Assembly: GCA_951406725.2 (NCBI GenBank)
Contig: OX597823.1
Location: 101,122,001-101,186,000, forward strand
Direction of reading: 5' to 3'
From: Octopus vulgaris
Taxonomy: Eukaryota
Length of the DNA: 64,000 nt
Shown: positions 9,336 to 64,000 of the stretch, piece by piece
Position numbering within the stretch: position 1 is the first letter of the stretch
Layout of the letters: every line of letters starts with the position of its first letter
Program-made: the position numbers and the translations under genes
The notes under the pieces: generated by a model
The model's input: the letters and a program-made list of their open reading frames with translations, nothing else
What the model was told of the DNA's origin: nothing
Database searches by the model: none

Positions 9336-11256
9336 CGTCGCTTCTATAAGTATTGACTCTCGAGCCATTATTGCGGAAGCTGGCAACTCTGAGGGGCATC
9401 CCGCGAGAACTGGGATGCGGGACGAGCGTGTCTGCATACGCGTACGACGTCACCGTCATAGTGTCTAGCCACGAGCACATCGAGCAGGTCGGCGAGACAC
9501 TGAAAAACTACGAAGCGGTGACAGGAGCGAAAATCAACCGGGAAAAGTCAGTGGGCTTGCGACTCGGCACCTGGAGAAGCAAGCCCATGCCGTCCACCAG
9601 CACCTCCGTCGTGGGACGCTGGACCGACGGTCCGGTCGAGTTGCTCGGAGTCTGGTTCGGTCCGGACCTCCAAGTGGAAAAGAACTGGAACGAGATAACG
9701 AGTAGGGTGGTCACTCTCGCCCGGCAATGCGCCGAGAGGAAACTGTCCCTAAGAGGTCGGGCGGAGGTGGCGAACACGTACATCGCGTCCGTCATCTACT
9801 ACTGCCTGACCGTCGTGCCTTGTCCCGATCCTACCATCACCAAACTAGAACGCATTCTCTTCCGCTTCTTGTGGAAAGGATGCGTCCCGATGGTCAGGCG
9901 ATCCATTTGCTGTCAACACCCGTTAAAAGGAGGACTGGGCATGCCGTGGTTGATGATGCGCAGACACGCGCTGAGACTGCGACATCTCAGGCTCTTCGTA
10001 GACGACGGTGATCAGGTATGGTCGCCGTTTGTGGGGCACGCTTTCCCGCAGCTCGTCTCTATGACCGAACTGCAGTCGTGGATCAAAAAGAGGCCGAGGA
10101 AGGGCGAATGGCACCGCGAGTGTCGCGTTGCTCTCAAGCAACTCTGCCGTCTTGGGTCGACCTTGAGTGACTCCATCACAACCAAAGCATTCTATAGGGG
10201 ATTAGAGGAGGGAGGTACGACGACGAGTTCGGGGCGAACCTGGATGATGAGGAATACCTGACTCGCCTGTTCGGGACGACTTTCGGGCCAGGGCTCATGG
10301 ACAACTTCCAGAGATCCCTGGCCTGGCAGTGCTACCGAGAAGCGCTACCCGTTCAGGATAAGCTCTACAGACACGGCTCGAGAAACACGGGGCCGACCTG
10401 CCCGAGATGCGTTCTGAGCGACGAAACCGTTCTGCACGCACTCGTGCAGTGTCCAACAATTTCCGACCTGTGGGCTTATGTCGAACAACTGCTGTCACGT
10501 GTGGGACGAGTCGGTTTATCAGCTGAGTCTATCGTCAATATTGTAACGCCTCCTTCCTTCAAATGGGAAGGAAGAGCTATTTTCATCATCCTTGTGGCTA
10601 TGGCGAAAGAATGTATCTGGTGGACACGTCTGAAAGGATTGGAGACAAACACTTTCCTCTCTGGTCAATCTCTCATCAACTTCTTCAAGTACCACTTGAA
10701 AAGGAAAGTGAGAGTAGAGAGGCAAGTTTTGTCTAGCGAATGTTTAAAAATAAGATGGGTGAATGTAGCAAGGATGGCACGTATGAATAACAAAGCCACC
10801 TTGAGCATAATCCTATGAACCCAGAAATTGAAAACAGAGGGTTACCCACTTGCAAACAAATGTGGTAACATATAACAATATTGACCGAGGTTACCGTGGT
10901 CTTTTTCGTAGGCTTTTCTTCCCACGGATAAGCCTTATCTGCTTCCCCCTTTACACCGTACATCATGACACTGATACACGATCCCTATTGATCGTTTTTT
11001 TCCTCTTCCCCTTTTTTCCTCTTTTTTCTTCTTTCTTCCTTTTTCTTTTCTTTTGTTTCTTTTCCTATTTTTCCTTTTTTTCTTCTTTATTTCTTTTTTT
11101 CCCCTTTTTACGGTCCCTTTTGATCGAAAACCTACGCCACTTTTGTTTTGTTTCTTTTGTTTTTTGTTTTTTGTTTTTTTCATCCCCCAAAAGAAAAGCT
11201 CTACCTTGTAATTTGTTCCATCTGTGTGCAGCCCTGTGTGGCCAATAAAGGAACTT
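9336..11256 (+). mobile_element. 5'-truncated L1/Tx1-clade non-LTR retrotransposon inserted in a (CTAT)n microsatellite
   Basis: ORFs 9353-10261 and 10297-10818: LEPLLRKL, SAYAYDV (degenerate YADD), GAKINREKS, LSLRGRA, GGLG, C-terminal CPRC..ETVLHALVQC; T-rich 3' UTR ending AATAAA; (CTAT)n on both sides. Confidence 0.9.
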
Positions 11257-13059: not shown

Positions 13060-13402
13060 ATAGACATGGCTGTGTGGTTAAGAAGCACAATTTGGGGCTA
13101 CATGGTTCCGGGTTCAGTTCCTTGGGCAAGTGTCTTCCACTATAGCCCCGAGCTGACCAATGCATTGTGAATGAATTTGGAAGACGGAATCTGTGCGGAA
13201 GCCAGTCATGCACAGAAATACATGCACCGATATAGGTTTACATTAATCAAAGTATTCAGTGTTTATCGTTTCATTTCAGCCGAGGTTACCTATCTCTTTC
13301 GTATTGGCTATTAAATAACTAAATATTAGAAAATAGAACGGTTAAGCGATTAATTAATATAATTCAGAGGTGGTAATACACACACACACACACACACACA
13401 CA

Positions 13403-14736: not shown

Positions 14737-16373
<1,637 letters not shown>

Positions 16374-26485: not shown

Positions 26486-26940
26486 TAAATTGTTGACACA
26501 CAACGAAGTATTGTTTCCATATCCATGACAGAGGTATTGCTACAACACACAGCCATCCGTGAACGCATCCAAAGAACGACCATTCTACCTCTAACTCACA
26601 GACGTATTGTTTCCTGTCCCTACTTTTTCCACCGCTACTCTTGTAGCCTCTGCTCCTCGAAATGGCTGGTCTCGCGCCACTTCCATGTAGATACTCCCGA
26701 CCCACTCGTTTCTCCTTGTCTCGCCATTACACCCTGTCCTTCTTCCTTAGAAAGTGATTCCTTTGGAGTTGTCCCGTTCTGCTCATGCTTTTCGCTTAGC
26801 AGTCGTCGACTTGCAACTGTTCATGGGAAGCATTAAGCACGTCGAACTCATTGGTCTCGGAGAGGCTACGACCGAAGGCCACGGGTACAATCCCTTCCTC
26901 CAAAATAATGTAATTGTATATTCCATACAGAACAATTTAT

Positions 26941-27027
26941 GCAGGCGCAGGCGTGGCTGTATATTTAAGATGCTTGCTTCGTAACCACATAGTTCAGAAA
27001 CCCGTCATGTATGTGTGTACGTCTCTA

Positions 27028-31240: not shown

Positions 31241-31739
31241 TCTCTGACCTACGCGCGATTATGTCGAGTAACGTCACGCCAGAGATCTTTGAAAGGAAAA
31301 ATTACTTTGTCTTCTCATTGATGAAGAAGTCGAAGATGAAAACTTTTCTCTAATATTTCCTTTGGTGCTGTTTGAGAATCATTGCGCTACAGGAGTTTGA
31401 TTTACAAAAGTGTTATTACATATAAAATTTTTAAAGTGAATTTTGTACCGAGATCATTCTACTTTCTCCTAATTTGCGTGATACAAACTGGTGCACAGGA
31501 TACTTACGTACCATATACAAAAGGACATATGAAAGGGGAGGTGGGGGTTGAAAATCCAAAAGCGGCTCTCAAAAACCAAACTGGAATATACAAAATAACA
31601 TACATAACCACAATGTGAAACGTCAAATTTTTATACAGTTTTACTCCTGCTTGCTAGCAAAGGTGCAGATATAGGTGTGTAGTTAAGAAACACGCTTTAC
31701 AGGCACGTGATTTCGGGTTCAGTCCCATTGCGTGACACC

Positions 31740-31773
<34 letters not shown>

Positions 31774-39800: not shown

Positions 39801-39990
39801 TATTCCTATCTCGTTCCTTAACAAATACTCTATCTATGTACGATCTGCGTGAGCCGTCGTTATTACTCCACGTCCACTGTGGAACGTTCGGCTCATCCAG
39901 TCGAAAACGGTCTACTAGATTAAAGCTCGCTAGTAGAGCCTTGAGGCCAGGAGCGATAGGAAGCGATAGGAAGTGGTTAGCCATGATAAG
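36895..39990 (-). mobile_element. 5'-truncated L1/Tx1-clade element (APE C-terminus + RT + CCHC)
   Basis: WTWSN..SYIDRVFV..TDHKLV..GPGYWKMN (APE end); KSPGLDGLPYEFY, NYRPITLLN, DQSKAFDRVDH, SVRQGCPLSPLLY, AYADDV, CPRC..ETVQHAFVQC; AATAAA plus A-rich tail. Confidence 0.92.
37037..38842 (-). pseudogene. Tx1-type ORF2 RT/C-terminal segment, frameshifted from 38836-39570
   Basis: 601-aa open stretch with YADD; clearly homologous to 9353-10818. Confidence 0.9.
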
Positions 39991-40055
39991 ATGGCTTCTA
40001 TACTTTACATTATCGAGCGATTACTGTTTCAATCTCATTCTGAGATTTAATTATG

Positions 40056-46979: not shown

Positions 46980-49790
46980 TATAAACGTTTGTAAGCAACA
47001 ACTATAAAACAAACTGTATAACACTCTCATCAACAGCGGTCGCACTATATCTATGTCACAATGATAATCTCAAATGCCCATACTGCAACACTGAGCCTTA
47101 TTAGACATTTCAATCACCCAAAAGCACACAATGGCGACAGGGACATAAAACGAAGAATATACACTTTCCCCCAAAAATGTCAATTCAAAAAAATGTTTAA
47201 AGACCCAGAAAACCCAAAACCAGCAAAATCACAAATGCATCTAAAATGTTAAGGACCCGAAGGATCCCCTGTACACATTAACATCTACGATTTACACGTG
47301 TCAACACTTTCAAAACTCCAGAATCTGGAATCTGGTCAAAATAATAACAACTCTATCAGCCTAGTTGCATAGCTTAAAGAATTTTGGAATTATATCACTA
47401 ATCCACACATACTCCTCTGCAAATCACATGAAAAAAACTTCCCACATGTATTATTCGACATCATCAAAAGTTTTGACTTCATTTTCTCCACTCCATTCAT
47501 ACAAAAATTACTCAATACCACCTTAAAACAATAAAAAAACCTTAACAAACCACTTGCCAAACCGTCAAACCTAAAAAGTGCACAAAACTTCCCGGTAGAG
47601 TACGACAAGAATTCAAACTCTCACTAACTCTCCTACACAACCTTTCCAAACTCACCAAATTATACTGATAGCCTTATACGTAGTTGATATCACTCTCACA
47701 TCTTCCTAAAATTCTCCAGACACTGCGGTGCAATTACTCCCAGCGTACATAAACTAAACCCAGAAACTCGGCGCCACAGCAACCAACTTAAAGTAGAATC
47801 TGTCAGATATATTAATTTTCATCTTACCAACAACTCCCGAGGACATCAAATACAATCAAACATCATATGGAAATGCATAACCATATTACACATTCATATA
47901 TATGAATGCTAGATGCTAGTAGTTGTATGTAATTCCTTTACAACATTTAGAACGCATACAGAAAACAACAAGAAAGCAAAACACCATACACAGTCACCAA
48001 ATCTGGTCCAAAGAAAATAACGAGAATAATGTCTTACTGACACTAAATTACATCTATTATGGACTATAATACCTCTAAATGGGCCATCAATCAGTCTTCA
48101 ACATGTCTACTCAGTACTTAAAACAGTGCATTACGAATCATGACAGTCGTACATAAACCACACTCACAAACAAATTACGCTATGAAACGAAAATGATCAA
48201 AATGAAAGACACCTAGAAATGCTAGGAGCCAGTTCTTTTTTGACATAGCACGCGTCAGTCATAACAAGCCTTGCCACAATGCACAGAGAAATATTGGGTT
48301 GGCTACTAAGTTCCCGCGGTTTTTAAAAAAAAATTTGGAATCTATTTTTTTTTCGAGAATTCTATTTTTGAATCATTTTGGAATCTATTTTTTTTTCTAG
48401 TTAATTTTAGTTAATTTTTGTTTATTTTCAAATCATTAAAATGGAATGTCAAGTTAAGAAAACGAACATTTTCGACACCTCCTTCTTTTTGCTTTTAATC
48501 AAAGTTCTAAGGTCGCAAAAGCTGCTCGCGACATTTGTGCTGTGTATGGAGAGGATGTCATAGCTGAAAGAACCGCTCGTGATTGGTATGCCAAGTTCAA
48601 AAATGGAAATTTTAACCTCAAAGACGCACCTCGTTCTGGCCGTCAAATTGAGTTCGATGAAGAGCGTTTAAATTAACTTTTGCACGAAAATTCTCGTCAA
48701 ACGACAAGGGAACTGGCAGAGAAAATGGAATGCTATAGAGAAACATCTTCACTCGATGGGAAAGGTTCAGAAGTATGGAGCATGGGTTCCGCAGGCTTTA
48801 AGTGACAACAAAAATCAACGAGCCACAATCTCCGCTCGTTTGCTTGCTCATCACTGCTCAACTCAGGGACACAAGCAGCTATTTCTTTACCGAATCGTTA
48901 CTGGCGACGAAAAATGGTGCCTGTACATCAATATGAAGCAGCGTAAGAAATGGCTTAGCCCCGGTAAACAAGCGACACCGCGCGTGAAACAAGATCTTCA
49001 TCTGTGTAAAATGATGTTGTGCGGGTGGTGGGACTGGGAAGGGATTATCCATTACGAATTGCTTGAACGGAACCAAACGATCAACGCGGAACTCTATGTT
49101 CAATAGATGGAACGACTCAACACGACTATTCAAGAGAAAAGACCTAATCATCAGCATGGAGTTCTTCTGCAGCACGACAACGCCCGCCCTCATATCGCCA
49201 ATATGACCAAGGAAGCCATTCAAACGCATGGCTGAGAAGTGCTGCCATACCCGCCGTACTCTCCTGATTTGGCACCAACGGATTTCCACCTCTTTTGATC
49301 TCTTTCAAATGCTATGCGCGGAGTTTCGTTTAATACTGATACAGAATTGAGAGCTTGGTTAGATCAATTTTTCGAGTCGAAATCAGGTATTGAAAATCTT
49401 GTTGAACGTTGGGAAGAAGTTATAAACAACAAGGGTGAATACATTATTGATTAATTAGTTGTTGTTTTTTATTAAACCTTTTAAAAACTTTAAATTTTAA
49501 AAAACCGCGGGAACTTAGTTGCGAACCCAATAGTTTCAACATCAATAGTTTCATTAAACTCAAACAATTTGTTAGGATGTACACGACCTGAACTAAGTAC
49601 ACAAGAAGAATCACTATCGCGTTCTCGTCGAATCTACTTTGGCTGTGGTCACTACCATAATTTACGGGCATTCAGAAATGGACAAGTTAGTGAAGAGAGT
49701 ATAACATGTCCAGACCGTCAATGTTCACCCCATACGAGCAATCACTGCATGTCCAAGCATGAAGCATGGTTGTCAGTTAAATGAATGTAT
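46980..49790 (+). mobile_element. Degenerate non-LTR element interrupted by the mariner
   Basis: A/C-rich coding-like strand; right of the mariner it reads NNLLGCTRPELSTQEESLSRSRRI..GH; no intact ORF. Confidence 0.35.
48294..49530 (+). mobile_element. Full-length mariner (DD34D) transposon, inactivated
   Basis: TA duplication; ~30 bp TIRs TTGGGTTGGCTACTAAGTTCCCGCGGTTTT / AAAACCGCGGGAACTTAGTTGCGAACCCAA; WVP, VTGDEKW, HDNARPH and YSPDLAPTDFHLF, with stops and frameshifts. Confidence 0.95.
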
Positions 49791-50277: not shown

Positions 50278-50460
50278 GGAGGCGCAATGGCCCAGTGGTT
50301 AGGGCAGCGGACTCGCGGTGTAAGAACGCGGTTTCGATTCCTAGACCAGGCATTGTGAGTGTTTATTGAGCAAAAACACCTGAGCTCCACGAGGCTCCGG
50401 CGTGGGGTGAGCCCCGCTGTACTCTTTCACCACAACTTTCTCTCACTCTTTCTTCCTACT
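50278..50460 (+). mobile_element. tRNA-derived SINE (same family as 45565-45752)
   Basis: GGAGGCGCAATGGCCCAGTGGTTAGGGCAGCGGACTCGCGG..GGTTTCGATTCC. Confidence 0.75.
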
Positions 50461-50929: not shown

Positions 50930-51131
50930 ATACTCTTTACTCTTTTACTTGTTTCAGTCATTTGACTGCGGCCATGCTGGAGCACCGCCTTTAGTCGAGC
51001 AAATCGACCCCGGGACTTATTCTTTGTAAGCCCAGTACTTATTCTATCGGTCTCTTTTGCCGAACCGCTAAGTGACGGGGACGTAAACACACCAGCATCG
51101 GTTGTCAAGCAATGCTAGGGGGACAAAAACA

Positions 51132-51187
<56 letters not shown>

Positions 51188-51336
51188 CATATATACGACA
51201 GGCTTCTTTCAGTTTCCGTCTACCAAATCCACTCACAAGGCATTGGTCGGCCCGGGGCTATAGCAGAAGACACTTGCCCAAGATGCCAAGCAGTGGGACT
51301 GAACCCGGAACCATGTGGCTGGTTAGCAAGCTACTT
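50930..51336 (-). mobile_element. Well-preserved tRNA-derived SINE whose head is interrupted between the A and B boxes by the ORF1-only array
   Basis: Minus strand AAGTAGCTTGCTAACCAGCCACATGGTTCCGGGTTCAGTCCCACTG...GGGCAAGTGTCTTCTGCTATAGCCCCGG...(TA)(TG)n...GAAACAAGTAAAAGAGTAAAGAGTA; the A-box part seen in copies at 13060 and 26941 is absent. Confidence 0.85.
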
Positions 51337-53567
51337 TATTTCAAAACATTTGCCATAAAGGCAGTACACAGATTAAGTTAGCTTTGCGGGCTGGACGAGG
51401 ACATTAATGAGGTGAATGATAATGAAAGAAGGATGATAAGGATGGGAGAAGACAAAAAGCGCCCGCCGACTTTTGCTTCTCTAAAACATTGTTCTTTTTA
51501 AGGATAAACACAAAACGAGGTATTAAACCTCTTACAATTTTTCTAATTTTTGGACTTAGCAGTCCATTATTAATATAAAACGAGGTATTAATCCTCTTAC
51601 AATTTTTCAATTTTTGGACTTAAGTCCATTACTAATAATACATATCGTCCTCGAAATAGCTTGTGCCCGCGCCCTCCACCATCAACCACGCCTCCCTCAG
51701 AACGTAATCAAGTTCCGAGTTCGCGTCGCCCGGGACCAAGTTATAATCTTCATTGAGCTCCTTTAGCCCAAGCGTCACGTCGAACGCCACGGCCTCCACA
51801 GCTACCTGTGGAGGCCATTCGGGGTCCTGTGTGAAGGCTAAAGGTGCTCCCTTGTAGTGCTCTTCCATCACTTTTTCAATTTCTCCTCCTCTATAGAAGA
51901 GGACCAATACGTTCAGTTCTTTCGTTGGCGGCACAGTTCCCGCCAACGGTATTCCTTCTCTTGTCGGTGGCACAACCCCAACCGACGTAGTTCCGGGACA
52001 TTCCGGTGCTACACTGACAGCCGGTAATGTCCCGTTTTTCTTCCTCTTTTTCTTTTTTTCCCTTTTCAACTGAGGGAGGGTGCGTCTCCTCCGTGGCTGG
52101 AAGATTCGCCTTCCTCTCCTCATCCCTATTATCCTTTGGTGAGCACCCATTGTTGCTCACCTTCCTCTTTCGGCCTCTGTTTGAGGAGTCCTCTGCTTTC
52201 TCGGCCGTTATCGTTCCCTCTTCTAGAGGGGTTTTACTTAACTGATCCGGGATCCTATTTTGTTCCCGAGGACAGTTCTTCTTTATGTGGCCGGACTCCA
52301 AGCACCGATGACACTTAGGGGGGGGGCGACCCTCAAGCATCACCGGGTACCTGCACCCGGCCATTTTCAAAAAATCTGGAAGAACCAGATTGGCTGATTG
52401 GGTCCACAGGGTCAAAATTGCTTTTGACCCAACCCAAGCAGCCGCAGGAAGAACTTTTACATTGAGGAGCTTAGTTTCGCTGTCACCCAGACCCCGGCGG
52501 ATAGTCTCCTCTATCCACTCGGGTTCTATGTCGGGTGGCAATCCGCAGATCCAAGCTTTCATCAATTTCTTTTTTTTGTACGTGGGCAGGAATAAGATTT
52601 CCTTACCCTCCAGGAGTTTGCTAGCAAATTTGCAAGCCTCTTCAGGGGTGTCAAATAGCAACCACACCGTTGCATATTTGACACCCCTGGAAATGAATTT
52701 AATTGTTGGCAAATACTCTTCCAACTCCTCCTCAATTGCCGTCTTTTCGAATAGGGCGATGGTGTCGAGTGCCTTGGAGTAGGTTCTCAACACCACCGTC
52801 CTATCTTCACGGTCTTTTAACCACTTTTTAGGTGGTATGATTTCCCACTCCAAAATTTTGTTATTTTTCATTGCCATGTTTTTTTTTAAATATATTCAAA
52901 TTAAACTCAAAAAGCAGGAAGAAAAAAGTTCAAAAGTCCAAATAAAATTTGATAGATTTTTGAAAAAACAAAAAAGGAGAAAGCACAACAGAAGGGAAGA
53001 AATCAACGGAAAGTCGCAATAAAGAAAAAAAACAAAAGGGGGGGTTAAGTGAAGTTCAAAAGAAAGTTAATAAACAGAAAAAACACAGCAAAAATATTCT
53101 GGCCTTGCGGTACTCCCGGCCTGGGTTGAACCTGGAACGCCGCAACTGCAACACAACCTCCACAAAAATGGGTCCGAAAGGTAATCCAATAGTGGCTTAT
53201 TTTTATAATTTTCTTGCGAAGTAGTAGTTTTCACAATTCATAAAAGTTCTTCACAGCACAATACAATTCTCACAATTACGTGAGAAAACTATTTACTCAA
53301 TTTATCGAGGACAGATACGCCCCCCCCCAAATTTTCTCAGCGAGAAAAATATATTTGCCACATGTCGGCAGAATCAGAATTCTGAATCCAGTAGGACTTC
53401 CTGCCTGTAAAAAACAATTCTCAACAAAAACTCCCACTGGACCCAGAAAACAGAATCTTACCTTACATGGGGCTTCCAAAGTTTTCAATTTAAGACGGCT
53501 TCAATAGCACGTCTTCACCGCTTCAGTGCCAAACACAACACTGACTCGCACATGCGCAGAAGCAACC
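51335..53567 (-). mobile_element. ORF1-only element, unit A1 (divergent family-A variant, ~2.2 kb)
   Basis: Bounded by GTTAGCAAGCTAC at 51322-51334 and 53568-53580; ends in AATAAA; homologous leader and ORF to A2-A6. Confidence 0.85.
51632..52877 (-). pseudogene. L1/Tx1 ORF1-like protein (RRM-like + CCHC), one frameshift in the purine run near 52050
   Basis: KFISRGVKYATVWLLFDTPEEA, AWICGLPP, PVMLEGRPPPKCHRCLESGHIKKNCP; C-terminus in the 51632-52150 frame aligns with A2 (VSV..VG.VPP..L.Y..G.E.E..WPPQVA.E). Confidence 0.8.
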
Positions 53568-53580
53568 GTTAGCAAGCTAC

Positions 53581-55571
53581 TTTATTTTATATAATTTGCC
53601 ACTAGGGCAGCACACAGAGTAGTAGCTACGGGCTGGACAAGGACATTAATGGATGATGGTGGTGGTGGATGAAGATGGTGATGGGAGAAGTCGAAAGCGC
53701 CCGCCGACTTTCGCTTCTCTAAAACAATGTTTCAATAAATACATTTAATAAAATGTTCACAATGATTTAAATTACATAAAAATGTTCAACAATTCTTCTC
53801 GTCAGGTCCCCGAAGCAAATTGTCTTGCCGCCTGCAGACAACTCTGCGACGACAAGTCGGGGCCTGCAAAGAGAAAAGTAAAGTCTTTCTTTTCAAAGGT
53901 CTCTGCGACCCTTGACAAAGTATCTTCTGTTACTTTTTCCGCAGCTACCCGCGGAGGCCATAACGGACTCCTTGAGCCGACCGTGCCCTTACGTTCTCGG
54001 TCACCCAAGCCATTCAAGAATCTTTCCACCTCCTCTCCCTTGTGGTAAAGGAGGAGAAGCATCTCCTCTTCACAGGGAGGGACCTCACACTGCTCCGTCA
54101 GTGGCACGCTTCCTACTGGCGGAGCCTTGTCCGCGGGTGGCACACATCCCACCCGCGGCTCCGTCGGCGACACAGAAACGTCAGTCGTCCGACCTCTCCT
54201 TTTATTCCTCCTCCTTTTGGGGGAGACTGCTGACCCAGGGGACTCCGTCACCAGACACGGGGGATTGCTATCCCCCTTCGCCCCCTGAGCGTTCTTTGGC
54301 GGGCAACCATTGTTGCTCGCCTTTCTCTTTCTTTTCGTGGAGGCAACCTCCTCCACGACTTCCATCGTCTCCCCCTCCAATGAGGGGGCGGCGGGCGCCT
54401 TTTCCCCTCTCTGCTCCGGGGCACCACCACGGCCCCTGGGACAATTCTTCCTGATATGTCCGGGCTTCAGGCACAGGTGACACTTGGGGGGGCGACCCTC
54501 GAGTATCACCGGGTACCTGTGCCCAGCCATTCTCAGGAAGTCCGGGAATTTCATTTCCCCCACGGCTACCGGTGTCCACAGGATCAAAGTTGCCCTCGAC
54601 CCCTGCCAGGCGACCGCGGGAGCCACCTTCACACTCAGCAGTCTGGGTCCGCTATCCCCCAGGCCTCGCCGGATGGTCTTCTCGATCCATTCCGCCTCCG
54701 TGCCCGGGGGCAGCCCACACACCCAGGCTCTTTTCACTTTTCTGCCACAATACGAGGGGAGGAACAAAATTTCATCTCCCTCCAGTGGCTCGCTAGCAAA
54801 TCTGCTAGCTTCCTCGGGGGTACCAAACAGCAACCAGACCGTTGCAAATTTAGTCCCCCGAGAAATAAATTTTATAGTTGGCAGGTATTCCCCCAACTCT
54901 TTCTCTATAGTATTCCTGTCGAAGAGGGCAATGACTCCACGCGACCTAGAATAGGTTCGTAGGACCACCGTCCTCTTCTCAAGACTTTCAATCCACTGCT
55001 TGGGTGGGACGACCTCCCATTCCAAAGCGGTGGTTTCTTTTGTTGCCGTGTTTTTTTTGTTTTTTTTTAAATAAATGTATTTAGAATAAAACTAAAAAAC
55101 GAGAAGAAAAGGAAATCCGAAGAAAGTCACAATGAAAAAAGGAGAGAGTCAAATAAAGTTGAAAAGAAAGTCAAATAAAGTTAAAAAGAAAGTCAAAAAC
55201 ACAGCAAAATCCTTTTGGCCATTTGGTACTCCCGGCCTAAATCGAACCAGGATCGCACAACTTCCACAAAAATTGGTGTAAAATTGGTAGTTCTTCACAG
55301 CACCATACAATTTTCACAATTCGAAGACGGATACGCCCCCAAAAACTTTCTCAGCGAGAAAAATATATCTGCCACATGTCGGCAGAATCAGAATTCTGAA
55401 TCCAGTAGGACTTCCTGCATGTAAAATATAATTCTCAACAAAAACTCCCACTGGACCCAGAAAACAGAATCTTACCTTACATGGGGCTTCCAAAGTTTCA
55501 ATTCAAGACGGCTTCAATAGCACATCTTCACTGCTTCAGTAGCAAACACAACACTGACTCGCACATGCGCA
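53581..55571 (-). mobile_element. ORF1-only element, unit A2 (~1.99 kb)
   Basis: Bounded by the junction motif at 53568-53580 and 55572-55584. Confidence 0.9.
53802..55049 (-). CDS. ORF1-like nucleic-acid-binding protein; open frame, but start codon reads ACG (ATG in sister units)
   Basis: CHLCLKPGHIRKNC (CX2CX4HX4C); basic KRKRK and PKRRRNKRR stretches. Confidence 0.75.
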   Translation of the reverse strand, partial: TATKETTALEWEVVPPKQWIESLEKRTVVLRTYSRSRGVIALFDRNTIEKELGEYLPTIKFISRGTKFATVWLLFGTPEEASRFASEPLEGDEILFLPSYCGRKVKRAWVCGLPPGTEAEWIEKTIRRGLGDSGPRLLSVKVAPAVAWQGSRATLILWTPVAVGEMKFPDFLRMAGHRYPVILEGRPPKCHLCLKPGHIRKNCPRGRGGAPEQRGEKAPAAPSLEGETMEVVEEVASTKRKRKASNNGCPPKNAQGAKGDSNPPCLVTESPGSAVSPKRRRNKRRGRTTDVSVSPTEPRVGCVPPADKAPPVGSVPLTEQCEVPPCEEEMLLLLYHKGEEVERFLNGLGDRERKGTVGSRSPLWPPRVAAEKVTEDTLSRVAETFEKKDFTFLFAGPDLSSQSCLQAARQFASGT

Positions 55572-55584
55572 GTTAGCAAGCTAC

Positions 55585-57092
55585 TTTATTTCAACTATTT
55601 TGCCATAAAGGCATTACATAGAGGGGACACTACAAAAACATGTGGGGACATATAACAATTAAAAATAAAATGGTACTGTGAGTGACATGAAAATGAACGT
55701 GAGAAAATAAATTAAGTTTATGATAACATGCATGATATCTGAAAATGAAATATGAAATATGACGAGTGTGCTACTCACCCCACTTTGAGCAACACCACTC
55801 GCTGCCTTTGAGTCTGAATTCTTCTCTAATCTCTGGTCTAGTCCTTCTTTTTCCATTCTCGCTATCACTTAAAGACAACTTTCTTTCGCAACCTTTTTCA
55901 CCGGGGGAGGGGTTTTCTGAATTCTGTGGTGTCTGCTCTTTTTTCTTTTTCTTTTTTTCTTGTGGGGAATGGGAGTGGGTGGGTCTGGTGTCTGTATGGG
56001 GCGGGTGGGTCTGAGTGGTCTTGGGTGGGATGGAGTTGGACTGGGGTACCATTTCACACTCAGTGTTCTTTCTTTTCTTCCTCTTCTTACTTCTGCTCTC
56101 TGCTACTATCCATTCTACCTCCTTTCGTCCGTCTTTGTCTTCGTCCTCTTTTTTCTTCTTTGTCTCCGCAACTGGTTCATCTATTTTTTCCTCTTTTTCT
56201 TCTGTAGGGAGCAGTGTGCTCTTTTTCTTCTGTAGGGGGCAGTGTGCTCTAATGTGGCCTTTTTGGCCACATTTAAAGCACCGCGGGGTTCTGCCTTCTA
56301 CCCATACTCTCAGTACCATTTCTCCCACTGACACCGTTTCCGCCAAATTTTCCAGCTCCTTCGCCTCCGCTTGTATGGTCATTTCCAGTAGTTTTCCTTT
56401 GTAACTTCTTTCCTCTGTCTCTGTGGCTTGGAGGACAGTCACCTCCTCACTTCCAACGAGGACGGCTGCCGCAACCCAAGCCACCTTTATGTCAGGTGGA
56501 ATTCCTTCTACCCTCACCTTAGAATTTTTTCTTCCAAGATAAGAGGGTAGAAGCACCAGTTCCTCAGCTTTTACGGTTGCACTTGCCAGCCTTCTCGCCT
56601 CCTCCTCTGTTTTAAACTGGACAACCACCGTCCCATATCCGCTTCCGTTTGCTATGTATGTTACTTCGTTCGAAAGCCCCTTGAGAGCTTTTTCTATTTT
56701 TTCCATATTCATCTGCTCCACTCTCCTACTCTCCACTGAGTGCACCTTGTAGGTGATGGTTTTTCTTTCCATATTCACCATGACCGTTTTCGGGGGTAGT
56801 AACTTTACGTCACTTCCCACCTTCTGTGTCATCTTATACAGCTCCTTCAGTTCAGTCAGGTCCACTTCCTTTCTCTTCACTCCCGCCGCGTCAGCAAAAC
56901 TCTTAATTTTCTCCAAATGTTGGTCCATCCTGTTCACCGCCTTAACGAGCTCCTCCTCAGATGTGGACAGCTCGTACTCGCTAAGGTCCGAATACATTAT
57001 TTTCCACTCGCCAACAAACCACTGGCGAGCAGCTCAAAGGATTCTGTCCGCCTAGTCAAAACTTGACACAGTAAACAACTCGACGCATGCGC
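55585..57092 (-). mobile_element. ORF1-only element, unit B (distinct family, ~1.5 kb)
   Basis: Bounded by junction motifs 55572-55584 and 57093-57106; body not visibly similar to A in nucleotide sequence but shares terminal motifs. Confidence 0.85.
55771..56997 (-). CDS. Intact 408-aa ORF1-like protein (helical N-terminus, RRM-like, CCHC, Lys/Glu-rich tail)
   Basis: YGTVVVQFKTEEEARR, LLPSYLGRK..VRVEGIPPDI, VWVEGRTPRCFKCGQKGHIRAHCP; motifs colinear with family A. Confidence 0.85.
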   Translation of the reverse strand: MYSDLSEYELSTSEEELVKAVNRMDQHLEKIKSFADAAGVKRKEVDLTELKELYKMTQKVGSDVKLLPPKTVMVNMERKTITYKVHSVESRRVEQMNMEKIEKALKGLSNEVTYIANGSGYGTVVVQFKTEEEARRLASATVKAEELVLLPSYLGRKNSKVRVEGIPPDIKVAWVAAAVLVGSEEVTVLQATETEERSYKGKLLEMTIQAEAKELENLAETVSVGEMVLRVWVEGRTPRCFKCGQKGHIRAHCPLQKKKSTLLPTEEKEEKIDEPVAETKKKKEDEDKDGRKEVEWIVAESRSKKRKKRKNTECEMVPQSNSIPPKTTQTHPPHTDTRPTHSHSPQEKKKKKKEQTPQNSENPSPGEKGCERKLSLSDSENGKRRTRPEIREEFRLKGSEWCCSKWGE

Positions 57093-57106
57093 GTTAGCAA
57101 AGCTAC

Positions 57107-59091
57107 TTTATTTTAAATAATTTGCCACTAGGGCAGCACACAGAGTAGTAGCTACGGGCTGGACAAGGACATTAATGGATGATGGTGGTGGTTGATGAAG
57201 ATGGTGATGGGAGAAGTCGAAAGCGCCCGCCGACTTTTGCTTCTCTAAAACAATGTTTCAATAAATACATTTAATAAACAATGATTCAAATTACATAAAA
57301 ATGTTCAACAATTCTTCTCGTCAGGTCCCCGAAGCAAATTGTCTTGCCGCCTGCAGACAACTCTGCGACGACAAGTCGGGGCCTGCAAAGAGAAAGGTAA
57401 AGTCTTTCTTTTCAAAGGTCTCTGCGACCCTTGACAAAGTATCTTCCGTTACTTTTTCCGCAGCTACCTGCGGAGGCCATAACGGACTCCTTGAGTCGAC
57501 CGTGTCCTTACGCTCTCGGTCACCCAAGCCATTCAAGAATCTTTCAACCTCCTCTCCCTTGTGGTAAAGGAGGAGAAGCATCTCCTCTTCACAGGGAGGG
57601 ACCTCACACTGCTCCGTCGGTGGCACACTTCCCACTGGCGGAGCCTTGTCCGCAGGTGGCACACATCCCACCCGCGGCTCCGTCGGCGACACAGAAACGT
57701 CAGTCGTCCGACCTCTTCTTTTCTCCTCCTTCTTTTGGGGGAGACTGCTGACCCAGGGGACTCCGTCACCAGACACGGGGGATTGCTATCCCCCTTCGCC
57801 CCCTGAGCGTTCTTTGGCGGGCAACCATTGTTGCTCGCCTTTCTCTTTCTTTTCGTGGAGGCAACCTCCTCCACGACTTCCATCGTCTCCCCCTCCAATG
57901 AGGGGGCGGCGGGCGCCTTTTCCCCTCTCTGCTCCGGGGCACCACTACGGCCCCTGGGACAATTCTTCCTGATATGTCCGGGCTTCAGGCACAGGTGACA
58001 CTTGGGGTGGCGACCCTCGAGTATCACCGGGTACCTGTGCCCAGCCATTCTCAGGAAGTCCGGGAATTTCATTTGCCCCACGGCTACCGGTGTCCACAGG
58101 GTCAAGGTTGCCCTCGACCCCTGCCAGGCGACCGCGGGAGCCACCTTCACACTTAGCAGTCTGGGTCCGCTATCCCCCAGGCCTCGCCGGATGGTCTTTT
58201 CGATCCATTCCGCCTCCGTGCCCGGGGGCAGCCCACACACCCAGGCTCTTTTCACTTTTCTGCCACAATACGAGGGGAGGAACAAAATTTCCTCTCCCTC
58301 CAGTGGCTCGCTAGCAAATCTGCTAGCTTCCTCGGGGGTACCAAATAGCAACCAGACCGTTGCAAATTTGCTCCCCGAGAAATAAATTTTATAGTTGGCA
58401 GGTAGTCCCCCAACTCTTTCTCTATAGTATTCTTGTCGAAGAGGGCAATGGCTCCACGCGACCTAGAATAGGTTCGTAGGACCACCGTCCTCTTCTCAAG
58501 ACTTTCAATCCACCGCTTTGGTGGGACGACCTCCCATTCCAAAGCGGTGGTTTCTTTTGTTGCCATGTTTTTTTTTGTTTTTTTTTTTAAATAAATGTAT
58601 TTAGAATAAAACTAAAAAACGAGAAGAAAAGGAAATCCGAAGAATGTCACAATGAAAAACGGAGAGAGTCAAATAAAGTTGAAAAGAAAGTCAAATAAAG
58701 TTAAAAAGAAAGTCAAAAACACAGCAAAATCCTTTTGGCCATTTGGTACTCCCGGCCTAAATCGAACCAGGATCGCACAGCTTCCACAAAAATTGGTGTA
58801 AAATTGGTAGTTCTTCACAGCACCATACAATTTTCACAATTCGAAGACGGATACGCCCCCCAAAATTTTCTCAGCGAGAAAAATATATCTGCCACATGTC
58901 GGCAGAATCAGAATTCTGAATCCAGTAGGACTTCCTGCATGTAAAAAATAATTCTCAACAAAAACTCCCACTGGACCCAGAAAACAGAATCTTACCTTCC
59001 ATGGGGCTTCCAAAGTTTCAATTCAAGACGGCTTCAAAAGCACATCTTCACTGCTTCAGTAGCAAACACAACACTGACTCGCACATGCGCA
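57107..59091 (-). mobile_element. ORF1-only element, unit A3 (ORF 57321-58566 with two homopolymer frameshifts)
   Basis: Junction motifs GTTAGCAAAGCTAC at 57093 and 59092; near-identical to A5. Confidence 0.9.
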
Positions 59092-59105
59092 GTTAGCAAA
59101 GCTAC

Positions 59106-61089
59106 TTTATTTTAAATAATTTGCCACTAGGGCAGCACACAGAGTAGTAGCTACGGGCTGGACAAGGACATTAATGGATGATGGTGGTGGTTGATGAAGA
59201 TGGTGATGGGAGAAGTCGAAAGCGCCCGCCGACTTTTGCTTCTCTAAAACAATGTTTCAATAAATACATTTAATAAACAATGATTCAAATTGCATAAAAA
59301 TGTTCAACAATTCTTCTCGTCAGGTCCCCGAAGCAAATTGTCTTGCCGCCTGCAGACAACTCTGCGACGACAAGTCGGGGCCTGCAAAGAGAAAGGTAAA
59401 GTCTTTCTTTTCAAAGGTCTCTGCGACCCTTGACAAAGTATCTTCTGTTACTTTCTCCGCAGCTACCTGCGGAGGCCATAACGGACTCCTTGAGCCGACC
59501 GTGTCCTTACGCTCTCGGTCACCCAAGCCAGTCAAGAATCTTTCAACCTTCTCTCCCTTGTGGTAAAGGAGGAGAAGCATCTCCTCTTCACAGGGAGGGA
59601 CCTCACACTCCTCCGTCGGTGGCACACTTCCCACTGGCGGAGCCTTGTCCGCGGGTGGCACACATCCCACCCGCGGCTCCGTCGGCGACACAGAAACGTC
59701 AGTCGTCCGACCTCTCCTTTTTCTCCTCCTTCTTTTGGGGGAGACTGCTGACCCAGGGGACTCCGTCACCAGACACGGGGGATTGCTATCCCCCTTCGCC
59801 CCCTGAGCGTTCTTTGGCGGGCAACCATTGTTGCTCGCCTTTCTTTCTTTTCGTGGAGGCAACCTCCTCCACGACTTCCATCGTCTCCCCCTCCAATGAG
59901 GGGGCGGCGGGCGCCTTTTCCCCTCTCTGCTCCGGGGCACCACTACGGCCCCTGGGACAATTCTTCCTGATATGTCCGGGCTTCAGGCACAGGTGACACT
60001 TGGGGGGGCGACCCTCGAGTATCACCGGGTACCTGTGCCCAGCCATTCTCAGGAAGTCCGGGAATTTCATTTGCCCCACGGCTACCGGTGTCCACAGGGT
60101 CAAGGTTGCCCTCGACCCCTGCCAGGCGACCGCGGGAGCCACCTTCACACTTAGCAGTCTGGGTCCGCTATCCCCCAGGCCTCGCCGGATGGTCTTTTCG
60201 ATCCATTCCGCCTCCGTGCCCGGGGGCAGCCCACACACCCAGGCTCTTTTCACTTTTCTGCCACAATACGAGGGGAGGAACAAAATTTCCTCTCCCTCCA
60301 GTGGCTCGCTAGCAAATCTGCTAGCTTCCTCGGGGGTACCAAACAGCAACCAGACCGTTGCAAATTTGCTCCCCGAGAAATAAATTTTATAGTTGGCAGG
60401 TAGTCCCCCAACTCTTTCTCTATAGTATTCTTGTCGAAGAGGGCAATGGCTCCACGCGACCTAGAATAGGTTCGTAGGACCACCGTCCTCTTCTCAAGAC
60501 TTTCAATCCACCGCTTTGGTGGGACGACCTCCCATTCCAAAGCGGTGGTTTCTTTTGTTGCCATGTTTTTTTTTGTTTTTTTTTTTAAATAAATGTATTT
60601 AGAATAAAACTAAAAAACGAGAAGAAAAGGAAATCCGAAGAATGTCACAATGAAAAACGGAGAGAGTCAAATAAAGTTGAAAAGAAAGTCAAATAAAGTT
60701 AAAAAGAAAGTCAAAAACACAGCAAAATCCTTTTGGCCATTTGGTACTCCCGGCCTAAATCGAACCAGGATCGCACAGCTTCCACAAAAATTGGTGTAAA
60801 ATTGGTAGTTCTTCACAGCACCATACAATTTTCACAATTCGAAGACGGATACGCCCCCCAAAATTTTCTCAGCGAGAAAAATATATCTGCCACATGTCGG
60901 CAGAATCAGAATTCTGAATCCAGTAGGACTTCCTGCATGTAAAAAATAATTCTCAACAAAAACTCCCACTGGACCCAGAAAACAGAATCTTACCTTCCAT
61001 GGGGCTTCCAAAGTTTCAATTCAAGACGGCTTCAAAAGCACATCTTCACTGCTTCAGTAGCAAACACAACACTGACTCGCACATGCGCA
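59106..61089 (-). mobile_element. ORF1-only element, unit A4 (ORF 59320-60564, frameshifted)
   Basis: Junction motifs at 59092 and 61090. Confidence 0.9.
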
Positions 61090-61103
61090 GTTAGCAAAGC
61101 TAC

Positions 61104-63088
61104 TTTATTTTATATAATTTGCCACTAGGGCAGCACACAGAGTAGTAGCTACGGGCTGGACAAGGACATTAATGGATGATGGTGGTGGTGGATGAAGATG
61201 GTGATGGGAGAAGTCGAAAGCGCCCGCCGACTTTTGCTTCTCTAAAACAACGTTTCAATAAATACATTTAATAAACAATGATTCAAATTACATAAAAATG
61301 TTCAACAATTCTTCTCGTCAGGTCCCCGAAGCAAATTGTCTTGCCGCCTGCAGACAACTCTGCGACGACAAGTCGGGGCCTGCAAAGAGAAAGGTAAAGT
61401 CTTTCTTTTCAAAGGTCTCTGCGACCCTTGACAAAGTATCTTCCGTTACTTTTTCCGCAGCTACCTGCGGAGGCCATAACGGACTCCTTGAGTCGACCGT
61501 GTCCTTACGCTCTCGGTCACCCAAGCCATTCAAGAATCTTTCAACCTCCTCTCCCTTGTGGTAAAGGAGGAGAAGCATCTCCTCTTCACAGGGAGGGACC
61601 TCACACTGCTCCGTCGGTGGCACACTTCCCACTGGCGGAGCCTTGTCCGCGGGTGGCACACATCCCACCCGCGGCTCCATCGGCGACACAGAAACGTCAG
61701 TCGTCCGACCTCTTCTTTTTCTCCTCCTTCTTTTGGGGGAGACTGCTGACCCAGGGGACTCCGTCACCAGACACGGGGGATTGCTATCCCCCTTCGCCCC
61801 CTGAGCGTTCTTTGGCGGGCAACCATTGTTGCTCGCCTTTCTCTTTCTTTTCGTGGAGGCAACCTCCTCCACGACTTCCATCGTCTCCCCCTCCAATGAG
61901 GGGGCGGCGGGCGCCTTTTCCCCTCTCTGCTCCGGGGCACCACTGCGGCCCCTGGGACAATTCTTCCTGATATGTCCGGGCTTCAGGCACAGGTGACACT
62001 TGGGGGGGCGACCCTCGAGTATCACCGGGTACCTGTGCCCAGCCATTCTCAGGAAGTCCGGGAATTTCATTTGCCCCACGGCTACCGGTGTCCACAGGGT
62101 CAAGGTTGCCCTCGACCCCTGCCAGACCGCGGGAGCCACCTTCACACTTAGCAGTCTGGGTCCGCTATCCCCCAGGCCTCGCCGGATGGTCTTTTCGATC
62201 CATTCCGCCTCCGTGCCCGGGGGCAGCCCACACACCCAGGCTCTTTTCACTTTTCTGCCACAATACGAGGGGAGGAACAAAATTTCCTCTCCCTCCAGTG
62301 GCTCGCTAGCAAATCTGCTAGCTTCCTCGGGGGTACCAAACAGCAACCAGACCGTTGCAAATTTGCTCCCCCGAGAAATAAATTTTATAGTTGGCAGGTA
62401 GTCCCCCAACTCTTTCTCTATAGTATTCTTGTCGAAGAGGGCAATGGCTCCACGCGACCTAGAATAGGTTCGTAGGACCACCGTCCTCTTCTCAAGACTT
62501 TCAATCCACTGCTTTGGTGGGACGACCTCCCATTCCAAAGCGGTGGTTTCTTTTGTTGCCATGTTTTTTTTTTTTTTTTTTTTTTTAAATAAATGTATTT
62601 AGAATAAAACTAAAAAACGAGAAGAAAAGGAAATCCGAAGAATGTCACAATGAAAAACGGAGAGAGTCAAATAAAGTTGAAAAGAAAGTCAAATAAAGTT
62701 AAAAAGAAAGTCAAAAACACAGCAAAATCCTTTTGGCCATTTGGTACTCCCGGCCTAAATCGAACCAGGATCGCACAGCTTCCACAAAAATTGGTGTAAA
62801 ATTGGTAGTTCTTCACAGCACCATACAATTTTCACAATTCGAAGACGGATACGCCCCCCAAAATTTTCTCAGCGAGAAAATATATCTGCCACATGTCGGC
62901 AGAATCAGAATTCTGAATCCAGTAGGACTTCCTGCATGTAAAAAATAATTCTCAACAAAAACTCCCACTGGACCCAGAAAACAGAATCTTACCTTACATG
63001 GGGCTTCCAAAGTTTCAATTCAAGACGGCTTCAAAAGCACATCTTCACTGCTTCAGTAGCAAACACAACACTGACTCGCACATGCGCA
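61104..63088 (-). mobile_element. ORF1-only element, unit A5 (intact)
   Basis: Junction motifs at 61090 and 63089. Confidence 0.9.
61318..62562 (-). CDS. Intact 414-aa ORF1-like protein (RRM-like x2 + CCHC knuckle + basic region + C-terminal domain)
   Basis: ATG preceded by an A-run; CHLCLKPGHIRKNC; no RT or endonuclease ORF follows before AATAAA ~210 nt downstream. Confidence 0.85.
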   Translation of the reverse strand: MATKETTALEWEVVPPKQWIESLEKRTVVLRTYSRSRGAIALFDKNTIEKELGDYLPTIKFISRGSKFATVWLLFGTPEEASRFASEPLEGEEILFLPSYCGRKVKRAWVCGLPPGTEAEWIEKTIRRGLGDSGPRLLSVKVAPAVWQGSRATLTLWTPVAVGQMKFPDFLRMAGHRYPVILEGRPPKCHLCLKPGHIRKNCPRGRSGAPEQRGEKAPAAPSLEGETMEVVEEVASTKRKRKASNNGCPPKNAQGAKGDSNPPCLVTESPGSAVSPKRRRRKRRGRTTDVSVSPMEPRVGCVPPADKAPPVGSVPPTEQCEVPPCEEEMLLLLYHKGEEVERFLNGLGDRERKDTVDSRSPLWPPQVAAEKVTEDTLSRVAETFEKKDFTFLFAGPDLSSQSCLQAARQFASGT

Positions 63089-63102
63089 GTTAGCAAAGCT
63101 AC

Positions 63103-64000
63103 TTTATTTTAAATAATTTGCCACTAGGGCAGCACACAGAGTAGTAGCTACGGGCTGGACAAGGACATTAATGGATGATGGTGGTGGTTGATGAAGATGG
63201 TGATGGGAGAAGTCGAAAGCGCCCGCCGACTTTTGCTTCTCTAAAACAATGTTTCAATAAATTTCCTCTCCCTCCAGTGGCTCGCTAGCAAATCTGCTAG
63301 CTTCCTCGGGGGTACCAAACAGCAACCAGACCGTTGCAAATTTGCTCCCCCGAGAAATAAATTTTATAGTTGGCAGGTAGTCCCCCAACTCTTTCTCTAT
63401 AGTATTCTTGTCGAAGAGGGCAATGGCTCCACGCGACCTAGAATAGGTTCGTAGGACCACCGTCCTCTTCTCAAGACTTTCAATCCACTGCTTTGGTGGG
63501 ACGACCTCCCATTCCAAAGCGGTGGTTTCTTTTGTTGCCATGTTTTTTTTTTGTTTTTTTTTTTAAATAAATGTATTTAGAATAAAACTAAAAAACGAGA
63601 AGAAAAGGAAATCCGAAGAATGTCACAATGAAAAACGGAGAGAGTCAAATAAAGTTGAAAAGAAAGTCAAATAAAGTTAAAAAGAAAGTCAAAAACACAG
63701 CAAAATCCTTTTGGCCATTTGGTACTCCCGGCCTAAATCGAACCAGGATCGCACAACTTCCACAAAAATTGGTGTAAAATTGGTAGTTCTTCACAGCACC
63801 ATACAATTTTCACAATTCGAAGACGGATACGCCCCCAAAATTTTCTCAGCGAGAAAATATATCTGCCACATGTCGGCAGAATCAGAATTCTGAATCCAGT
63901 AGGACTTCCTGCATGTAAAAAATAATTCTCAACAAAAACTCCCACTGGACCCAGAAAACAGAATCTTACCTTACATGGGGCTTCCAAAGTTTCAATTCAA
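63103..64000 (-). mobile_element. ORF1-only element, unit A6, with ~1020 bp internal deletion; runs off the window
   Basis: 3' UTR joined to ORF codon ~94 at AAAT (63259-63262). Confidence 0.85.

What the first reader, a model, noticed from the sequence alone, without database searches (positions are those of the whole stretch)
51322..51340. The junction motif is a duplicated piece of a tRNA-derived SINE head: a SINE-targeting element
GTTAGCA(A)AGCTAC occurs at 51322, 53568, 55572, 57093, 59092, 61090 and 63089, always between one unit's 5' end and the next unit's TTTATT (AATAAA on the element strand). At 51322 it is contiguous with the SINE body (minus strand AAGTAGCTTGCTAACCAGCCACATGGTTCCGGGTTCAG). 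Related SINE heads at 26941 (TAAGATGCTTGCT..AACCACATAGTTC) and 13060 place this segment between the A and B boxes. It therefore behaves as a 13-15 bp target-site duplication, with the target's AA completing the AATAAA and no poly(A) tail. Inference: the element parasitises a high-copy SINE as a safe harbour and splits its Pol III promoter.
Basis: partly seen in the sequence, partly recalled or inferred. Interest (0 to 1): 0.82.

Follow-up and report, generated by a model that had tools for sequence, protein, structure and literature searches.

The report
SINE-targeting ORF1-only retrotransposon array
In what appears to be octopus DNA, seven copies of three different short retrotransposons that encode only an RNA-binding protein sit head-to-tail at one spot inside another jumping element (a SINE), each separated by the same copied 15-16 base piece of that SINE, which likely means they are repeatedly pasted there by an enzyme borrowed from a related full-length element.

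Summary
Observation confirmed. The motif stands at all 7 stated places (3 plain, 4 with one extra A), always between one unit's 5' end and the next unit's AATAAA, with no poly(A). The array holds three families (A, B x5, C; 29-53% protein identity), all ORF1-only (two RRM-like folds plus one CCHC knuckle), under purifying selection and without any RT or endonuclease trace. Their 3' tail resembles that of an L1/Tx1-type RT element elsewhere in the window. Best reading: non-autonomous, HAL1-like, probably Tx1-clade elements inserted site-specifically and repeatedly into one SINE subfamily, with a 13-15 bp target-site duplication. Not shown: the SINE head beyond the array, genome-wide specificity, the helper element; part of the B run may be DNA-level duplication. 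Close precedents exist (Tx1 in Tx1D, Tx1-Mar/SINEU in Mariner-N4, HAL1, HeT-A); a SINE as target was not found in my searches. New variant of a known kind.

The parts
51195..51336 (-). 3' part of the host SINE (from the target segment through the B-box-like motif at 51296-51308 to the tail); head missing on this side
   Evidence: summed contig depth 1.9-12.7 million in this bin against 10^0-10^5 on the units
51129..51195 (.). (CA)n(TA)n microsatellite at the SINE's 3' end
51322..51336 (-). target segment, plain form (AAGTAGCTTGCTAAC on the element strand), contiguous with the SINE body
51335..53567 (-). unit A, 2233 nt, ORF1-only; ORF split over two frames (51891-52895 and 51632-52156); 9 extra bases at the 5' end
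53568..53582 (-). target segment copy 2, plain form
53581..55571 (-). unit B (older copy, U2), 1991 nt; open frame 53805-55049, ACG where the other B copies have ATG
55572..55586 (-). target segment copy 3, plain form
55585..57092 (-). unit C, 1508 nt; intact ORF 55771-57000 (409 aa from the frame used): helical N-terminus, two RRM-like folds, CCHC knuckle, disordered basic tail
57093..57108 (-). target segment copy 4, +A form (confirmed without a gap by a contig of run X1, 56917-57122)
57107..59091 (-). unit B (U4), 1985 nt, ORF frameshifted
59092..59107 (-). target segment copy 5, +A form
59106..61089 (-). unit B (U5), 1984 nt, ORF frameshifted
61090..61105 (-). target segment copy 6, +A form
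61104..63088 (-). unit B (U6), 1985 nt, intact ORF 61318-62562 (414 aa)
63089..63104 (-). target segment copy 7, +A form
63103..64000 (-). unit B (U7) with an internal deletion of about 1.1 kb at 63259-63262 (4-nt overlap); runs off the window
9340..11254 (+). 5'-truncated RT/zf-RVT element of L1/Tx1 type inside a (TATC)n array; its 3' tail resembles the tails of the array units; a relative of the presumed helper, not the helper itself
26940..27002 (+). related SINE head, uninterrupted, without the motif
13062..13208 (+). related SINE copy, uninterrupted, without the motif
31665..31740 (+). related SINE head, uninterrupted, without the motif

Best explanation
The junction motif is a native piece of a SINE subfamily that is repeated between seven head-to-tail ORF1-only elements of three families, and it is likely a target-site duplication left each time one of these non-autonomous non-LTR retrotransposons was inserted at that site by a borrowed, probably Tx1-clade, endonuclease-RT. 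Shown: motif native to the SINE; same junction for three families; ORF1-only anatomy; purifying selection on ORF1; 3' tail like that of an RT-bearing L1/Tx1-type element. Inferred: the unit is transcribed from its own 5' end, its ORF1 protein binds its RNA, a helper ORF2 protein recognises the shared 3' tail, nicks the SINE at the TT opposite the AA just behind the A-box-like head, primes there using the AA overlap (or a few read-through target bases) instead of a poly(A) tail, and cuts the other strand 13-15 bases on. Because each insertion regenerates the segment, the site is hit again and an array grows, most likely at the copy next to the SINE head (older A, B, C near the SINE body, young B copies outward). 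Recombination or block duplication has probably added to the young B run.
For: 7 of 7 junctions identical but for one A, sharp boundary at the unit 5' ends. Intact SINEs carry motif+TT+head in 369/463/182/161 records of 4 of 4 runs. Three families, A-B 53% and C-B 29% protein identity, C with almost no DNA similarity to A or B outside the last 40-60 nt. Other unit orders with the same spacer in other runs: a C-to-C joint 57092->55572 in X2, and a C-like 3' end behind 53601 in 2 records of X8. ORF1: zf-CCHC in 4 of 4 main ORFs (E 0.0005-0.03, each just under the curated cut-off), model pLDDT 76 with top Foldseek hits to tandem-RRM proteins, i.e. the Type I ORF1p that PMC5203782 links to Tx1-type elements in non-mammalian animals (passages). 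No ORF2 trace in 51-64 kb by tblastn of 6 ORF2 proteins at E<1. A vs B dN 0.215, dS 1.75; old B vs young B pN/pS 0.35 (bootstrap 0.17-0.71). B tails vs tail of the RT element at 11195-11254: 0 and 2 of 5000 shuffles reach the score; A 42 of 5000. ORF1 relative P0104 and EN-RT relative P0166 are each on one ENA contig of length 5758, a hint of one autonomous element. Precedent: Tx1-Mar and SINEU-3 in Mariner-N4 with tandem copies sandwiching a 16-nt TSD (PMC4494074).
Against: The SINE head at the far end and any element-5'-end-to-SINE-head junction were not seen. Only one locus was read; 3 of 3 other SINE copies in the window lack the motif, so they are no test of preference. The +A form goes exactly with the four young B units, which fits a motif carried on the RNA or block duplication as well as serial insertion; informative sites among B copies conflict (4 sites U2,U6|U4,U5; 3 sites U2,U5|U4,U6). 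The X1 contig over the C-motif-B junction has depth 354 against 50-85 for one-off joints, a weak hint that this junction is itself multicopy (the tool warns depth is no copy number). The C tail does not match the RT element's tail (3753 of 5000 shuffles); as a blind scan of 51 kb the B-tail match is only about 2 SD above shuffles; the tail hairpin is not unusually stable (z +0.2, -0.6, -1.7, 0.0). That RT element sits in (TATC)n, not in the SINE, so the actual helper is unseen, and Tx1 versus other L1 lineages was not resolved.
Confidence: 0.72

Rival explanations
1. The motif has become part of the elements' own 3' end (carried on read-through RNA); the array was built mostly by template jumping between such RNAs or by DNA-level unequal exchange after one or a few insertions into the SINE, so most junctions are not independent target-site duplications.
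For: +A form tracks the young B units; B copies 99.2-99.4% alike with mosaic informative sites; possible multicopy C-motif-B junction; no poly(A) between AATAAA and motif.
Against: Three families as distant as 29% protein identity end in the same SINE segment and the first copy is in register with the SINE body; DNA-level duplication cannot make the A/B/C order; different orders in other runs. Even here the SINE segment had to be the original target.
Confidence: 0.16
2. The true, selected target is another multicopy sequence, such as a tRNA or snRNA gene or its spacer, and the SINE is hit because its tRNA-like head resembles it.
For: tRNA genes and U2, U5, 5S genes are known targets of site-specific non-LTR elements and Dada transposons (PMC4640811, PMC4494074, PMC8869645; passages). 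No octopus tRNA set could be searched.
Against: Contigs that pass the motif continue into the SINE head as their majority sequence in 4 of 4 runs (agreement 0.66-0.80); the segment and B-box region do not fold notably (z -0.27) and no tRNA or other structural RNA reaches a curated score in the window.
Confidence: 0.07
3. The units are terminal additions in the manner of HeT-A (3' ends inward, 5' ends outward) on a chromosome or broken end that began in a SINE.
For: ORF1-only, mixed-family, head-to-tail, one polarity; right end unseen; ORF1-only arrays are common among Drosophila telomeric elements (PMC13534243, passages).
Against: Six of six complete units have full, sharp 5' ends followed by the same SINE segment; terminal addition gives no reason for that spacer.
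Confidence: 0.03
4. The array or the +A variant is an assembly artefact.
For: Homopolymer-length differences and frameshifts in U4 and U5; no laid contig spans the whole stretch.
Against: B copies differ by 11-44 substitutions; a contig of X1 crosses the 57093 junction with the +A form and no gap.
Confidence: 0.02

Closest known systems
Tx1-Mar LINEs and their non-autonomous SINEU partners in crocodilian Mariner-N4_AMi (Kojima 2015, PMC4494074; parts 2-4 of 5 and passages read)
   Same: Target is another high-copy transposon; fixed site; TSD of about 16 nt; tandem copies sandwich a TSD; non-autonomous partners share the target.
   Different: Target there is a DNA transposon (or LTR elements, Harbinger); the partners are non-coding and have poly(A); here the target is a SINE head and the partners keep a conserved ORF1 and have no poly(A).
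Xenopus Tx1L in Tx1D (as cited in PMC4494074; the primary paper was not held)
   Same: Site-specific insertion into a non-autonomous mobile element.
   Different: Tx1L is autonomous and its host is a piggyBac-type DNA element.
HAL1 (half-L1) (passages of PMC5753468; primary paper not held)
   Same: Non-autonomous L1-group derivative encoding ORF1p only.
   Different: Described for mammalian L1; ORF1 here is RRM+CCHC (Type I), not Transposase_22; site-specific tandem arrays are not part of what I read on HAL1.
HeT-A and other ORF1-only telomeric elements of Drosophila (passages of PMC13534243)
   Same: ORF1-only families that persist and diversify in mixed head-to-tail arrays, dependent on another family's ORF2.
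   Different: Jockey clade, chromosome ends; here an internal SINE segment separates every unit.
Kibi/Koshi and other microsatellite-targeting Tx1 families (PMC4494074)
   Same: The RT element at 9340-11254, whose tail resembles the array units' tails, lies inside (TATC)n.
   Different: Autonomous type, different target; only a relative of the presumed helper.

Membership tests
Tx1 clade (L1 group) | RT domain groups with Tx1 families in a tree | tested here: inconclusive
   Units have no RT. A full-length relative (P0166) of the tail-sharing RT element matches L1 ORF2p at E 1.5e-80 against R2 at 2e-20: L1 group; no named Tx1 references were available for a tree.
Tx1 clade (L1 group) | ORF2 with apurinic-type endonuclease | tested here: not met
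   No ORF2 in any unit; 8 of 21 longer relatives of the 9350 ORF2 carry PF03372. The units can only be non-autonomous dependants.
Tx1 clade (L1 group) | Type I ORF1p: RRM(s) followed by CCHC knuckle | tested here: met
   definition from passages of PMC5203782. Not exclusive to Tx1.
Tx1 clade (L1 group) | Insertion at a fixed site of a multicopy target with a TSD | tested here: inconclusive
   Met at this locus for 7 of 7 junctions and target native to the SINE; outer flank and genome-wide share not seen.
HAL1 (half-L1) | Encodes ORF1p only | tested here: met
   ORF stop lies 186-297 nt from the 3' end in A, B, C
HAL1 (half-L1) | Derived from mammalian-type L1 (Transposase_22 ORF1p) | tested here: not met
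   No Transposase_22 match in the units or among the 25 families listed for the 66 aligned proteins; works like HAL1, not a member.
HeT-A-like telomeric elements | ORF1-only units in head-to-tail arrays | tested here: met
HeT-A-like telomeric elements | Array at a chromosome end | not testable with these tools
   Right end lies outside the window; no genome held
HeT-A-like telomeric elements | Jockey-clade ORFs | not tested
   No Jockey references; the linked RT is L1-group
tRNA-derived SINE (host) | High-copy short element with A-box and B-box-like motifs and simple-repeat tail | tested here: met
   the box consensus is recalled, not from a call
tRNA-derived SINE (host) | Head alignable to a tRNA | tested here: inconclusive
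   ARAGORN 0 genes; Rfam no tRNA match on the window or on the heads at 13050 and 31655; these copies are diverged and the target copy's own head is outside the window

The most novel reading that the evidence does not exclude
Octopus carries an old guild of ORF1-only hyperparasites specialised on one SINE subfamily: several families, kept coding by selection after losing RT, share one helper endonuclease that cuts between the SINE's A and B boxes, build polar arrays that grow from the head side, and so knock out SINE copies, with the second SINE subfamily (different sequence at the same segment) as an escape variant, an arms race between non-autonomous elements.
Probability: 0.2. Interest if true: 0.75.

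Novelty: new variant of a known kind. Interest (0 to 1): 0.52.

Why it matters
It would add a SINE head to the list of targets of site-specific non-LTR retrotransposons, and join two traits known separately: ORF1-only dependence (HAL1, HeT-A) and Tx1-type targeting of another mobile element. The arrays record an order of insertion, and ORF1 kept under selection in elements that must borrow ORF2 makes the open question of what ORF1p does in cis testable. A helper endonuclease with a 15-bp target would be a further natural site-specific RT-endonuclease. For octopus genome annotation it explains 10-kb-scale gag-like arrays that gene callers report as uncharacterised proteins.

Tried and rejected
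No genome is held, so the far end and genome-wide counts could not be read. Junction and target patterns found 0 matches in metagenome contigs and genome contigs; the ORF1 alignment found no relative in viral contigs (40 pattern matches, none confirmed). Earlier findings: nothing in 4 look-ups. No RNA holder listed; run X10 is only guessed to be RNA, so its cover is not used for expression. Rfam on the whole window gave only sub-threshold microsatellite-driven matches, and nothing meaningful on four small stretches. The 3' tail hairpin (GCC-loop-GGC) is visible in A, B, C and the 11231 tail but not more stable than shuffles; the pattern that picks 7 unit ends plus 11231 was written after seeing them (0.13 expected in shuffled background). 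The second RT element (36900-40050) has no convincing tail match (28-1964 of 5000 shuffles). ESM Atlas gave only unnamed CCHC and ZCCHC3-like clusters at 0.89-0.92 and unnamed RT clusters. No L1 ORF1p structure was listed among the fold hits. LTR or retroviral origin rejected: no LTR-like terminal repeats within units, no RT or integrase frame. PMC9004415 and PMC3747384 passages added nothing on SINE targets.

Full report
Observation. The motif is at the seven stated coordinates and nowhere else in that form. Three copies have two A (51322, 53568, 55572), four have three (57093, 59092, 61090, 63089); all seven are followed by TTTATT. The 13-mer has 5 matches at up to two mismatches against 1.08 expected, 0 of 100 shuffles reaching 5. 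On the element strand each junction reads AATAAA, then GTAGCTT(T)GCTAAC, then the next unit's first base, with no poly(A).

Source. No genome is held. The nearest named proteins are from Octopus sinensis (61% over 68% of the B protein; 40%), O. bimaculoides, O. vulgaris and Argonauta, so the window is very probably octopus DNA (inference). Twenty of 24 listed runs hold part of the stretch, under four organism labels and ten studies.

The target. Left of 51322 the sequence is a SINE body with a B-box-like motif and a (CA)n(TA)n tail. Three related copies in the window align with it and put the segment behind the head, but none has the motif. Laying four runs on 51262-57150 settled this: records that fit the SINE body and motif leave the window behind 51336 with ACCACACAGCCACTCCTGC(GCC), in 369 (X1), 463 (X2), 182 (X8) and 161 (X10) records, of 46805, 45375, 21437 and 13336 laid. 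So intact SINEs read head, AAGTAGCTTGCTAAC, body: the motif plus AA is native SINE sequence and the duplicated stretch is at most 15 nt, the AA being shared with the unit's AATAAA. A second SINE subfamily leaves at 51322 with GAAGCAAACTTCTTACCACACAGCC (50 and 70 records in X1, X2), so the segment is subfamily-specific. These counts depend on the likeness filter and give no genome share. The tRNA origin of the head and the A/B box reading rest on recalled consensus; ARAGORN and Rfam did not recognise the heads.

The units. There are three families: A (2233 nt), B (five copies, 1984-1991 nt, the last internally deleted and cut by the window) and C (1508 nt), in the order A, B, C, B, B, B, B away from the SINE body. 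A and B share the first 270 nt at 92%, the coding part at about 70% and the last 160 nt at 78%; C shares only the last 40-60 nt. Each has one ORF with one CCHC knuckle (E 0.0005-0.03); identities to the intact B protein are 97, 53 and 29%. A model of C from 66 sequences (pLDDT 76) matches tandem-RRM proteins best (18 hits at E<=0.001; Z up to 9.5 for the first domain), the RRM+CCHC ORF1p that PMC5203782 calls Type I and ties to Tx1-type elements in non-mammalian animals (passages). The profile finds 846 relatives at E<=0.001. Six ORF2 proteins give no tblastn hit in 51-64 kb at E<1, and the stop lies 186-297 nt from the 3' end. ORF1 is conserved: A vs B dN 0.215, dS 1.75 over 203 codons; old B vs young B 14 synonymous and 15 non-synonymous changes, pN/pS 0.35 (0.17-0.71). 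A and B have homologous C-terminal coding parts and 3' UTRs, so the ORF1-only layout probably predates their split (inference).

The likely helper. The window holds two truncated RT/zf-RVT elements. The one at 9340-11254 lies within (TATC)n and ends in a tail with AATAAA and no poly(A). The B tails match it better than all but 0 and 2 of 5000 shuffles, A 42 of 5000, C not at all (3753 of 5000); the A, B and C tails match each other (0-4 of 3000). As a blind scan of 51 kb the B match is the top hit but only about 2 SD above shuffles. Full-length relatives of this ORF2 carry an apurinic-type endonuclease and are L1-group. One ORF1 relative (P0104, 25% over 210 aa to C) and one such ORF2 (P0166) each come from a single ENA contig of 5758 nt, a hint, unverified, of one autonomous element. 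The helper with the SINE target was not seen, and Tx1 against other L1 lineages was not resolved.

Mechanism. Most likely target-primed reverse transcription in trans at a fixed SINE site, primed through the AA overlap or a few read-through bases, with a staggered second cut that regenerates the segment and so invites the next insertion (inferred, 0.72). Other unit orders with the same spacer occur in other runs: a joint from C's 5' end back to C's 3' end in X2 and a C-like end behind 53601 in two X8 records. The order of ages (A frameshifted, old B 97%, young B 99%) and the run of +A copies fit growth at the head-side copy. Against a purely serial history: the +A form tracks the young B units exactly, their informative sites conflict, and the X1 contig over the C-motif-B junction has depth 354 against 50-85 for one-off joints (weak). 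The decisive junction, unit 5' end to SINE head, is not among the 24 loose-end rows shown; 1530 rows were not shown, so this is neither support nor refutation.

Comparison with what is known. PMC4494074 (parts 2-4 of 5 and passages) describes Tx1 in the DNA element Tx1D, Tx1-Mar and SINEU in Mariner-N4 with tandem copies sandwiching a 16-nt TSD, and Tx1 families in LTR elements, Harbinger and microsatellites. [quoted passage not shown] HAL1 is the ORF1-only L1 derivative (PMC5753468, passages); ORF1-only mixed arrays are common at Drosophila telomeres (PMC13534243, passages). A 2026 O. vulgaris annotation reports 13 recently active L1-Tx1 families and 11.6% SINE content and, in the two of three parts read, nothing on targets or ORF1-only families (PMC13282606); its supplement and library were not read. 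No report of a SINE-targeting or ORF1-only Tx1-type element came up in searches (listings seen); the library lacks most subscription papers and Repbase entries, and the target labels of Kojima's figure 3 were not visible, so prior description there cannot be excluded.

Verdict. It works like Tx1-Mar/SINEU in targeting and like HAL1 or HeT-A in being ORF1-only; it is a member of neither HAL1 nor, as an autonomous element, Tx1. New variant of a known kind; interest 0.52.

Noticed in passing
window 9340-11254 (+): 5'-truncated L1/Tx1-type RT element inside a (TATC)n array, no poly(A); looks like a microsatellite-targeting family.
   Followed up: partly
window 36900-40050 (-) and 35535-36746 (-): Second truncated L1/Tx1-type ORF2 starting at a (TA)n run, A-rich tail, directly upstream of a GIY-YIG (Penelope-like) element.
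   Followed up: partly
window 53559-53567 (-): Unit A has 9 extra 5' bases (GGTTGCTTC) one mismatch from the corresponding segment of the second SINE subfamily seen; possibly a captured target remnant.
   Followed up: no
window 55560-55571, 53547-53558, 57083-57092 and the other B 5' ends (-): All three families begin with a GCGCATG(T/C)G-type motif resembling an NRF1 site (recalled), a candidate internal Pol II promoter.
   Followed up: no
window 55270-55571 (-), same in A and other B units: The 5' UTR folds strongly (-101 kcal/mol, z -4.9, 0 of 100 shuffles), with one long hairpin.
   Followed up: partly
window 55470-55478 to about 55090 (-), same in A and other B units: A donor-like AAG|GTAAG near base 100 and a pyrimidine tract ending in AG shortly before the start codon suggest an intron in the 5' UTR that is nevertheless kept in every copy; no such joint among the 15 shown.
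   Followed up: partly
window 55225-55255 (-) and 53108-53140 (-): A B-box or tRNA T-arm-like stretch inside the A/B 5' UTR; no Rfam match.
   Followed up: partly
window 63259-63262: Internal deletion of about 1.1 kb in unit U7 with a 4-nt overlap, not at GT-AG.
   Followed up: partly
window 50290-50400 (+): A different tRNA-like SINE head about 0.8 kb left of the target SINE; no Rfam match.
   Followed up: partly
window 14848-16158 (+), 25309-26347 (+), 48672-49304, 2196-4445 (-): Further mobile-element fragments: an R4/Dong-like C-terminal ORF, two Tc1/mariner-like transposase pieces and a second Penelope-like element (read from translations; family labels recalled).
   Followed up: no
proteins P0104 and P0166: ORF1 and EN-RT relatives each recorded on one ENA contig of 5758 nt; may be one autonomous element.
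   Followed up: partly
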